Below are positions 4,591-4,729 of a stretch of DNA of 4,729 nucleotides, piece by piece. The translations under genes and the position numbers were made by a program. This DNA is from a virus (Duplodnaviria > Heunggongvirae > Uroviricota > Caudoviricetes). Below the pieces are notes generated by a model. It was not told where the DNA came from. It made no database searches and saw only the letters and a list, made by a program, of their open reading frames with translations. The stretch is taken from the IMG/VR virus record IMGVR_UViG_2563366944_000006, one strand, 5' to 3'. How positions within the stretch are numbered: position 1 is the stretch's first letter; each line of letters opens with the position of its first letter.

Positions 4591-4659
4591 TATTAATAAA
4601 ATAATCTGGTATAGAAAGTCGTTTCTGAGCTATTTAACAAAACAATGAGCAGAAAATTT

Positions 4660-4729
4660 GGTAATGACTCCAACTTATTGATAGTGTTTTATGTTCAGAT
4701 AATGCCCGATGACTTTGTCATGCAGCTCC
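4660..4729 (-). mobile_element. IS1 insertion sequence, terminal inverted repeat (insB-proximal end) and first 70 bp; element continues beyond the window
   Basis: 4660-4729 (GGTAATGACTCCAACTTATTGATAGTGTTTTATGTTCAGATAATGCCCGATGACTTTGTCATGCAGCTCC) is the exact reverse complement of the IS1 right end as I remember it (...GGAGCTGCATGACAAAGTCATCGGGCATTATCTGAACATAAAACACTATCAATAAGTTGGAGTCATTACC). Abrupt transition from AT-rich flank to IS sequence at 4659/4660. Confidence 0.85.
4675..4729 (-). CDS. insB: IS1 transposase InsB, C-terminal fragment (partial; gene runs off the window)
   Basis: Minus-strand translation of 4675-4728 gives ...ELHDKVIGHYLNIKHYQ followed by TAA, matching the remembered InsB C-terminus. 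Lies inside the IS1 end identified above. Confidence 0.75.
   Translation of the reverse strand, partial: ELHDKVIGHYLNIKHYQ

What the first reader, a model, noticed from the sequence alone, without database searches (positions are those of the whole stretch)
4651..4729. IS1 insertion boundary at the right edge of the accessory islet
The IS1 terminal repeat begins exactly at 4660. IS1 may have truncated a downstream gene or the prophage end, and it is a plausible vehicle for having brought in, or deleted part of, the AT-rich cargo. The 9 bp just outside the IS (4651-4659, AGAAAATTT) should recur at the far end of the element if this is a simple insertion.
Basis: partly seen in the sequence, partly recalled or inferred. 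Interest (0 to 1): 0.45.

Follow-up and report, generated by a model that had tools for sequence, protein, structure and literature searches.

The report
IS1 end at a deletion joint
The last 70 bases of the window are a genuine end of the common insertion sequence IS1, but the element marks a roughly 705-base IS1-associated deletion that removed the prophage's right attachment site, not a simple insertion; this is ordinary, well-known biology.

Summary
Window 4660-4729 is the IRR end of IS1, 70/70 identical to thousands of annotated copies. IS1-free alleles match the window 100% up to 4659 and diverge at 4660.

The window is one contig of scaffold KE136814.1 (GCA_000408005.1). It stops at 4729 because a 340-N gap lies inside the IS1. 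After the gap come 204 bp of the IRL end, then ATAGAGCCT and a truncated yciE pseudogene. A complete genome (AF3) shows the same structure with an intact 768-bp IS1.

The flanks AGAAAATTT and ATAGAGCCT differ, so the predicted target duplication is absent. Compared with IS1-free alleles, 704-705 bp are missing:
- the last 313 bp of the prophage
- the attR core in ompW and the ompW 3' remnant
- 214 bp of yciE

Two clonal relatives keep the same IS1|yciE joint but lack a further 25.3 kb of the prophage. An unrelated strain has a simple IS1 insertion at the same yciE site with a perfect ATAGAGCCT duplication.

The best reading is an IS1-mediated adjacent deletion. The order of events, and recombination between two IS1 copies, are not resolved. 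IS1 did not bring in the AT-rich cargo, since about 97 genomes carry it without this IS1. This is known biology of low interest.

The parts
4660..4729 (-). Terminal 70 bp (IRR side) of a 768-bp IS1 (IS1A type). insA and insB read on the - strand, towards the islet. The rest of the element lies beyond the contig end, in a scaffold gap.
   Evidence: 70/70 identity to annotated IS1 copies. The same joint in AF3 has a complete 768-bp IS1. The window's own scaffold continues with the IS1 IRL end after a 340-N gap.
4660..4682 (.). IS1 right inverted repeat (IRR), GGTAATGACTCCAACTTATTGAT
   Evidence: Aligns with the reverse complement of the other end (IRL, GGTGATGCTGCCAACTTACTGAT) at 18 of the first 23 positions in the AF3 copy. 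IS1 anatomy is as described in PMC12428005.
4675..4729 (-). 3' end of insB (the last 17 codons plus the TAA stop, which lies inside the IRR)
   Evidence: Translation ELHDKVIGHYLNIKHYQ* equals the C-terminus of the 167-aa InsB ORF of the AF3 copy, which hits PF03400 DDE_Tnp_IS1 at E = 2e-78.
4651..4659 (.). AGAAAATTT, the 9 bp abutting the IRR. It is not duplicated at the other IS1 end. It is either the target of the intramolecular event that made the deletion, or the surviving copy of an original duplication.
   Evidence: The far flank is ATAGAGCCT in the scaffold and in AF3. AGAAAATTT is absent from the first 72 bp after the far (IRL) end.
4519..4659 (+). Remaining intergenic tail of the prophage islet downstream of the vapA-like gene. 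In IS1-free alleles it continues for another 313 bp to attR.
   Evidence: Alignment of the window to CE10 and AF14. The attR core was mapped against K-12 ompW.

Best explanation
SHOWN. Window 4660-4729 is the IRR end of an IS1 whose transposase genes lie on the - strand. This copy is not flanked by a target-site duplication. It replaces 704-705 bp that are present in IS1-free alleles. The missing DNA comprises the last 313 bp of a lambdoid prophage integrated in ompW, the attR core, the 119-bp ompW 3' remnant with its intergenic region, and the 3' 214 bp of yciE. yciE was already a pseudogene in this lineage. The other end of the IS1 (IRL) abuts nucleotide 292 of yciE, with flank ATAGAGCCT.

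INFERRED (most likely). IS1 first inserted into yciE and duplicated ATAGAGCCT. The same copy then carried out an intramolecular replicative transposition into the AT-rich prophage tail, with target AGAAAATTT at window 4651-4659. This is a classic IS1 'adjacent deletion': the DNA between the IRR end and the target is lost as a circle, together with one ATAGAGCCT copy, and the IS1 is left joined precisely to 4659.

CONSEQUENCE (inferred from lambda Int/Xis biology). With attR gone, while int, xis and attL remain, the prophage and its ykgJ-like/vapA-like cargo can no longer excise. IS1 did not import the cargo.

My estimates: about 0.97 that this is an IS1-associated deletion joint and not a simple insertion. 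Of that, about 0.5 for yciE-first adjacent deletion, 0.2 for islet-first adjacent deletion and 0.2 for recombination between two IS1 copies. The confidence given for this entry (0.7) is for 'transposase-mediated adjacent deletion at an IS1 end', whichever end came first.
For: 1. IS1 identity and exact boundary. Pfam hits for InsA and InsB, and the A6C frameshift motif, in the full AF3 copy.
2. Own-genome continuation. The window equals L010 9217-13945. After a 340-N gap come 204 bp of the IS1 IRL end, then ATAGAGCCTTTGAC... (yciE') and yciF-yciG-trpA.
3. The complete genome AF3 has the identical left joint (the only one of 5,426 genomes). Its IS1 is an intact 768 bp with flanks AGAAAATTT | ATAGAGCCT.
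4. Empty-site alleles. CE10 shows 704 bp missing with 0 bp of microhomology at either breakpoint. The near lineage-matched AF14 (2 differences in 3,511 bp of right flank) shows 705 bp missing.
5. The attR core CAGTGTGGTACATGGATAT lies inside the missing segment. AF3 retains int, xis and an intact ompW at the attL side.
6. One joint is fixed and the other endpoint varies within one clone. The window scaffold, AF3, SCU-172 and MSB1_4I have 0-1 differences in 3.4 kb of right flank and the same IRL|ATAGAGCCT joint. In SCU-172 and MSB1_4I the IRR abuts a point 25,328 bp further into the same prophage, whose left flank is 99.8% identical to AF3.
7. Strain 510016 has a simple IS1 insertion at the very same yciE position and orientation, with ATAGAGCCT on both sides. 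GPEC1258 is a second control, with a 9-bp duplication ACGTTGGGG in ompW.
8. Literature. IS1 is 768 bp, makes 8-9 bp duplications and transposes mainly replicatively (PMC12428005). Adjacent deletions start precisely at an IS end, end at the target site, and IS1/Tn9 is a listed example (PMC9330008). Absence of a target duplication typically signals adjacent deletion or IS-IS recombination, and deletions can grow stepwise (PMC11708052).
9. The carriers are IS1-rich. AF3, SCU-172 and MSB1_4I all reach the 40-piece reporting cap, against 2-10 places in most IS1-free carriers.
Against: - No same-lineage precursor was found among 5,426 complete genomes, whether a simple insertion in yciE with attR intact or a simple insertion at 4659. 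The order of events is therefore inferred.
- The only simple insertion at the yciE site (510016) is in an unrelated background: 112 differences in 3.4 kb, and it lacks the lineage's yciE nonsense and frameshift mutations. It is an independent hit and supports yciE-first and islet-first equally.
- The final structure is identical to what RecA recombination between two directly repeated IS1 copies would give.
- In the window's own genome the middle of the IS1 is an unsequenced 340-N gap. 494 bp would be expected for a 768-bp element, so a single intact IS1 is inferred there from the AF3 proxy.
- The 204-bp IRL piece in the scaffold differs at 3 positions from the AF3 copy. This may be repeat-collapse noise or a different IS1 variant.
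- Loss of excision was not tested.
Confidence: 0.7

Rival explanations
1. Homologous (RecA) recombination between two directly oriented IS1 copies. One was inserted in yciE (duplication ATAGAGCCT) and the other at window 4659 (duplication AGAAAATTT). Recombination deleted the 705 bp between them and left one hybrid IS1.
For: It yields exactly the observed structure and flanks. The lineage is IS1-rich, with at least 39 pieces per genome. The islet is a proven IS1 target, since CEA106S carries another IS1 at window 3922-3930. Both IS-IS recombination and adjacent deletion are recognised causes of missing target duplications (PMC11708052).
Against: It needs more events. The window type needs two insertions in the same orientation plus one crossover. 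The SCU-172 type needs a third insertion and a second crossover. Adjacent deletion needs one insertion plus one or two intramolecular events. No genome with two IS1 copies at this locus, or with a simple insertion at 4659, exists among 5,426 complete genomes.
Confidence: 0.2
2. Islet-first variant of the adjacent deletion (a sub-case of the best explanation's mechanism, with the opposite order). IS1 originally inserted at 4659|4660, duplicating AGAAAATTT. Its IRL end then attacked yciE at ATAGAGCCT and deleted rightwards. The larger SCU-172/MSB1_4I deletion arose later from the IRR end.
For: The number of events is the same as for the yciE-first model. The left flank lies in an AT-rich region (35% GC within +/-50 bp), the kind of region IS1 is known to favour (my own knowledge of IS1 target preference). 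ATAGAGCCT is a validated IS1 target, so it could equally have served as an intramolecular target.
Against: Both IS1 ends would have had to generate deletions in one clone, whereas under yciE-first only the IRR side varies. No genome shows a simple insertion at 4659, while a simple insertion at the yciE site does exist.
Confidence: 0.2
3. Simple IS1 insertion into the islet with a 9-bp duplication of AGAAAATTT.
For: Only the correct identification of the IS1 end.
Against: The far flank is ATAGAGCCT in both the window's scaffold and AF3, and 704-705 bp of the IS1-free allele are missing.
Confidence: 0.01
4. Assembly artefact. The contig ends in a repeat and the scaffolder wrongly joined it to a different IS1-bounded contig (yciE'), so the true neighbour of this IS1 is unknown.
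For: The window is bounded by N runs, the IS1 interior is a gap whose size (340 N) is only an estimate, and the genome probably has dozens of IS1 copies.
Against: An independent complete genome (AF3) has exactly the same left joint, an intact IS1 and the same right joint. Its 3.4-kb right flank is identical to that of the scaffold.
Confidence: 0.03

Closest known systems
IS1 (IS1 family, IS1A-type copies of E. coli)
   Same: The 70 window bases are identical to annotated copies. The proxy copy is 768 bp with imperfect terminal inverted repeats, insA (PF03811 + PF12759), insB (PF03400) and the TTAAAAAAC frameshift site (anatomy in PMC12428005).
   Different: This copy lacks the usual 8-9-bp target-site duplication.
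IS1-mediated adjacent ('replicative') deletions. From my own knowledge: Reif & Saedler 1975 on the gal region. Cited in held papers: Turlan & Chandler 1995, ref. 39 of PMC12428005; PMC9330008, section 5.2.1.
   Same: The deletion starts exactly at an IS terminus, the IS is retained intact, there is no target duplication, there is no microhomology at the breakpoints, and clonal relatives share one joint but have different distal endpoints, both in AT-rich DNA.
   Different: This is a natural isolate with no experimental proof of transposase dependence. The precursor was not sampled in the same lineage, and the product cannot be told apart from IS1 x IS1 recombination.
Stepwise IS150 adjacent deletions in the Lenski long-term lines (PMC11708052)
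   Same: An IS already in place, then a small deletion without a target duplication, sometimes extended later. Here the parallel is 705 bp in the window and AF3 against 26 kb in SCU-172 and MSB1_4I.
   Different: A different IS family (IS3 versus IS1), and time-resolved samples exist there but not here.
Defective or 'grounded' lambdoid prophages of E. coli that have lost an att site or their late genes (general knowledge; for example the cryptic prophages of K-12)
   Same: A lambdoid prophage in ompW retains int, xis and attL but has lost attR. Relatives have additionally lost the 25-kb packaging, head and tail gene region downstream of the lysis genes.
   Different: Apart from attR, the AF3 prophage still looks gene-complete. 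Inducibility was not tested.

Membership tests
IS1 family insertion sequence | Characteristic imperfect terminal inverted repeats of about 23-30 bp (IRR GGTAATGACTCC..., IRL GGTGATGCTGCC...) | tested here: met
   The IRR is at window 4660-4682. The IRL is present after the gap in the same scaffold and in AF3. The two ends match at 18 of the first 23 positions.
IS1 family insertion sequence | Element length of 768 bp | tested here: inconclusive
   Met in the proxy genome AF3 (L001 6961-7728 = 768 bp). In the window's own scaffold only 70 + 204 bp are sequenced, around a 340-N gap.
IS1 family insertion sequence | insA and insB' reading frames with an A6C -1 frameshift site, giving the InsAB' DDE transposase | tested here: met
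   In the AF3 copy, InsA hits PF03811 and PF12759, InsB hits PF03400 (E = 2e-78), and TTAAAAAAC is present. The window encodes the identical last 17 InsB codons. The scaffold piece after the gap carries the InsA zinc ribbon.
Simple IS1 insertion event | An 8-9-bp direct duplication of the target on both sides of the element | tested here: not met
   AGAAAATTT on the left against ATAGAGCCT on the right. Positive controls with perfect 9-bp duplications: 510016 (ATAGAGCCT) and GPEC1258 (ACGTTGGGG).
Simple IS1 insertion event | Removing the IS and one duplication copy restores the IS-free allele | tested here: not met
   704 bp (CE10) or 705 bp (AF14) of the IS-free allele are absent.
IS-mediated adjacent deletion | The deletion begins exactly at an intact IS terminus, with no target duplication and no breakpoint microhomology | tested here: met
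   Zero bases of microhomology at either breakpoint, and the IS1 is intact in AF3.
IS-mediated adjacent deletion | One IS-flank joint is constant, with variable distal endpoints among relatives | tested here: met
   The IRL|ATAGAGCCT joint is shared. The IRR abuts window 4659 in the window and AF3, and a site 25,328 bp further left in SCU-172 and MSB1_4I. The right flanks are identical.
IS-mediated adjacent deletion | A precursor with a simple insertion at the fixed joint in the same lineage | tested here: not met
   None among 5,426 complete genomes. The only simple insertion at that site is in an unrelated background. Its absence may reflect sampling.
IS-mediated adjacent deletion | Transposase-dependent, RecA-independent formation | not testable with these tools
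   This needs genetics.
Lambdoid prophage integrated in ompW, with a right attachment site | An attR core shared with attB/attL, followed by the displaced ompW 3' end | tested here: not met
   Present in CE10 and AF14 (core around L002 7274-7292; ompW remnant 7267-7392). It lies wholly inside the segment missing from the window's allele.

The most novel reading that the evidence does not exclude
The locus may capture a stepwise, IS1-driven 'grounding' of a cargo-bearing prophage in an IS1-expanded extraintestinal E. coli clone. The steps would be an intact prophage (AF14-like), then loss of attR (window, AF3), then loss of the packaging, head and tail genes (SCU-172, MSB1_4I). In addition, the yciE 9-mer ATAGAGCCT may be a recurrent, orientation-specific IS1 target, because it was hit at the identical nucleotide in two unrelated lineages. 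If the loss of attR was selected because it fixes the vapA-like/ykgJ-like genes in the chromosome, this would be a small natural example of IS-mediated prophage domestication.
Probability: 0.3. Interest if true: 0.25.

Novelty: already known. Interest (0 to 1): 0.1.

Why it matters
The value is mainly correct annotation.
- The right edge of the islet in this window is not its natural edge. The islet is prophage cargo that normally runs another 313 bp to attR in ompW.
- IS1 is not the vehicle of the AT-rich genes.
- The IS1 marks a deletion that removed attR and probably immobilised the prophage.
- A missing target duplication should be read as a sign of secondary rearrangement.
- Contig ends that stop inside an IS are assembly gaps, not biology.

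None of this changes what is known about IS1 or prophage decay.

Tried and rejected
1. Looked for the predicted AGAAAATTT at the far IS1 end. It is absent from the first 72 bp after the far (IRL) end, and ATAGAGCCT is absent from the 60 bp left of the near joint.
2. Looked for same-lineage intermediates by searching both joints against 5,426 complete genomes. The left joint occurs only in AF3. The right joint occurs in AF3, SCU-172, MSB1_4I and the unrelated 510016. GPEC1258 was a split, unrelated hit: IS1 in ompW.
3. A chimeric empty-site query (CE10 left part plus AF3 right part) gave at best 98.8%. This briefly suggested that the yciE frameshift and nonsense mutations arose after the IS1 event. 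I rejected that: AF14 and MS 21-1 carry an uninterrupted yciE that already has both lesions.
4. Tested whether the simple insertion in 510016 could be the same event moved by recombination. It cannot. Differences begin within 30 bp of the joint, and its first 200 bp of flank are identical to CE10 and lack the two lineage-specific lesions.
5. The window has no DNA similarity to the K-12 ompW-yciE region. In the prophage-free GPEC1258 locus, which carries an annotated ykgJ-family fragment beside yciC, only the IS1 end matches.
6. The promoter and terminator consensus scan of 4000-4729 gave nothing above the shuffled expectation.
7. Turlan & Chandler 1995 (PMC394650) is not held. It is cited only through reference lists.
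8. Short-read contigs break at IS1, so they could not resolve the order of events.

Full report
**1. The observation**

Window 4651-4659 reads AGAAAATTT, and 4660 begins GGTAATGACTCCAACTTATTGATAGTG....
- A search with 4660-4729 against 5,426 complete E. coli genomes returned 70/70 matches under features annotated 'IS1-like element IS1A/IS1B family transposase'. In all, 9,285 records hold at least 80% of the stretch, with E = 6e-28 per hit.
- On the - strand, 4675-4728 translates to ELHDKVIGHYLNIKHYQ*. This is the C-terminus of the 167-aa InsB ORF of a full copy, which hits Pfam PF03400 DDE_Tnp_IS1 at 2e-78. The partner ORF hits the two InsA domains, PF03811 and PF12759.
- The boundary is exact. 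About 97 genomes match window 3700-4659 at 100% and stop matching at 4660. Base-by-base comparison with CE10 shows the first difference at the position equivalent to 4660, with zero microhomology.

**2. Why the window stops at 4729**

The tail-fibre protein encoded at 785-2848 is found, as an exact sequence, on one public record: scaffold KE136814.1 of assembly GCA_000408005.1.
- The window is exactly L010 9217-13945 of that scaffold and is bounded by runs of N on both sides.
- The right-hand gap (340 N) lies inside the IS1.
- After the gap come 204 bp of the IRL end of IS1 (3 differences from the AF3 copy).
- These are followed by ATAGAGCCTTTGACTATTTC..., a truncated yciE, and then yciF, yciG and trpA.

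**3. A gap-free proxy**

Only one complete genome, isolate AF3 (NZ_OZ547117.1), has the islet|IS1 joint.
- It differs from the window by 25 substitutions, all upstream of 2586.
- Its 3.4-kb right flank is identical to that of the window's scaffold.
- Its IS1 is an intact 768 bp (L001 6961-7728) with the TTAAAAAAC frameshift site.
- The flanks are AGAAAATTT on the IRR side and ATAGAGCCT on the IRL side.

As positive controls for a simple IS1 insertion, GPEC1258 has IS1 in ompW flanked by ACGTTGGGG on both sides, and strain 510016 has IS1 flanked by ATAGAGCCT on both sides.

**4. What is missing**

Compared with CE10, the window-type allele lacks L002 6961-7664, which is 704 bp. Compared with AF14, which is IS1-free and nearly lineage-matched (2 differences in 3,511 bp of right flank), it lacks 705 bp.

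Homology to K-12 begins at L002 7274, inside ompW. A three-way alignment of K-12 attB, AF3 attL and CE10 attR places the common core at CAGTGTGGTACATGGATAT.

The missing DNA therefore comprises:
- the last 313 bp of the prophage (34.5% GC)
- the attR core
- the displaced ompW 3' remnant
- the ompW-yciE intergenic region
- the 3' 214 bp of yciE

AF3 still has int, xis and an intact ompW at the attL end, and an apparently complete lambdoid gene set. yciE was not inactivated by this event. In AF14 and MS 21-1 the uninterrupted gene already carries a nonsense codon at position 26 and a frameshift.

**5. How it arose**

Four genomes share the IRL|ATAGAGCCT-yciE joint.
- Three of them (AF3, SCU-172, MSB1_4I), together with the window's scaffold, are clonal at this locus: 0-1 differences in 3.4 kb.
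- In SCU-172 and MSB1_4I the IRR abuts GTTTATCAC, just downstream of the prophage lysis genes. That point lies 25,328 bp further into the same prophage, whose left flank is 99.8% identical to AF3.

So one joint is constant and the IRR-side endpoint varies. The IS is intact, there is no duplication and there is no microhomology. These are the hallmarks of IS-mediated adjacent deletions made by intramolecular replicative transposition. [quoted passage not shown] IS1 is reported to transpose mainly replicatively (PMC12428005). Missing target duplications are typically due to adjacent deletion or IS-IS recombination, and deletions can grow stepwise (PMC11708052).

The fourth genome, 510016, shows that ATAGAGCCT in yciE is a genuine IS1 insertion target. 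It is an independent event, with 112 differences in 3.4 kb and without the lineage's yciE lesions.

**6. What is not settled**

Three histories give the same product:
- (a) insertion in yciE, then a deletion from the IRR end into the prophage
- (b) insertion at 4659, then a deletion from the IRL end into yciE, followed later by an IRR-side deletion in SCU-172 and MSB1_4I
- (c) two IS1 insertions followed by homologous recombination

Histories (a) and (b) each need three events to explain both allele types, and (c) needs five. No same-lineage intermediate exists among the complete genomes.

I favour (a), because only the IRR side varies in the clone and because a simple insertion at the yciE site is the only precedent actually observed. 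The preference is weak: roughly 0.5, 0.2 and 0.2. A wrong scaffold join is unlikely, because AF3 independently shows the same structure.

**7.

IS1 as the vehicle for the AT-rich cargo is not supported. The ykgJ-like gene (PF03692) and the vapA-like gene (PF05526) sit between the tail-fibre genes and attR. This block occurs in about 97 genomes with no IS1 at this site. 'IS1 truncated a downstream gene or the prophage end' is correct on both counts.

**8. Verdict**

This is a real IS1 end at exactly the stated coordinate. It marks an IS1-associated deletion of about 705 bp that removed attR, not a simple insertion. The element, the mechanism and the prophage decay are all textbook, so novelty is 'already known' and interest is low.

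Noticed in passing
window 4066-4518 (+) and 3548-3880 (-): The AT-rich cargo (GC 0.29-0.40) encodes a 150-aa protein of the Rhodococcus equi VapA/VapB virulence-associated family (PF05526, E = 5e-34) and a 110-aa YkgJ/CxxCxxCC cysteine-cluster protein (PF03692). They sit as cargo between the tail-fibre genes and attR of an E. coli lambdoid prophage. About 97 of 5,426 complete genomes carry the block.
   Followed up: partly
L003 (CEA106S) 5231-6196, insertion point = window 3922-3930: A second, independent IS1 event in the same islet. A 965-bp insert is flanked by an 8/9-bp duplication, TAACTGCA(G). It consists of an internally deleted IS1 (about 676 bp) plus 290 bp of an M20-family peptidase gene fragment that ends in ...ATCAATACC, which resembles an IS1 end. 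IS1 may have mobilised adjacent DNA using a surrogate end.
   Followed up: partly
L007 (510016) 2803-3570 and the yciE site (L002 7665-7673): The identical 9-mer ATAGAGCCT in yciE was hit by IS1 in the same orientation in two unrelated backgrounds. It may be an IS1 hot spot.
   Followed up: partly
L005/L006 (SCU-172, MSB1_4I) 2794-2802 | IS1: Clonal relatives of the window's strain have lost 25.3 kb more of the prophage, from downstream of the lysis genes through the terminase, head and tail genes and the islet. The loss starts from the same IS1.
   Followed up: yes
window 237-281, 414-501, 2491-2511: The 25 substitutions between the window and AF3 are tightly clustered in the lom-like gene and the tail-fibre C-terminal region. 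This suggests gene conversion or mosaic exchange with other lambdoid prophages, not point mutation.
   Followed up: no
window 1116-1500: There is extreme AT skew (up to +0.70) at about 55% GC within the tail-fibre gene. It corresponds to a long low-complexity Ala/Ser/Lys/Thr/Glu-rich repeat region of the protein (...AAKKSETAAASSKNAAKTSETNA...).
   Followed up: no
window 4546-4590: A strong hairpin (15-nt arms, CAGACCCGGCTTTGT / ACATTGTCGGGTCTG) lies 28 nt after the vapA-like stop codon and is followed by AU-rich sequence. The fold z-score is -3.5 for 4516-4659. It is probably the gene's terminator, although the consensus terminator scan did not call it.
   Followed up: partly
L011/L012 5787-6292; L002 7451-7957: yciE is a pseudogene independently of IS1 in several lineages. 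AF14 and MS 21-1 have a nonsense codon plus a frameshift, and CE10 has an internal stop.
   Followed up: partly
AF3, SCU-172, MSB1_4I genome-wide: These genomes reach the 40-piece reporting cap for IS1 matches. The median is about 10 places per genome, and most carriers of the IS1-free allele have 2-10. This indicates an IS1-expanded clone.
   Followed up: no
L010 6842-9216 and 13946-14285: Both ends of the window are scaffold gaps. The left gap (2,375 N) falls inside the gpJ tail-tip gene, so the window limits are assembly artefacts and not biological boundaries.
   Followed up: yes
L007, L011, L002, L012: ompW is a recurrent integration site for different lambdoid prophages. The cargo next to attR differs between strains: Rha/ash genes plus IS100 in 510016, a SAM methyltransferase in MS 21-1, and ykgJ/vapA-like genes here. 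Integration regenerates a full ompW from a phage-borne 3' end.
   Followed up: partly
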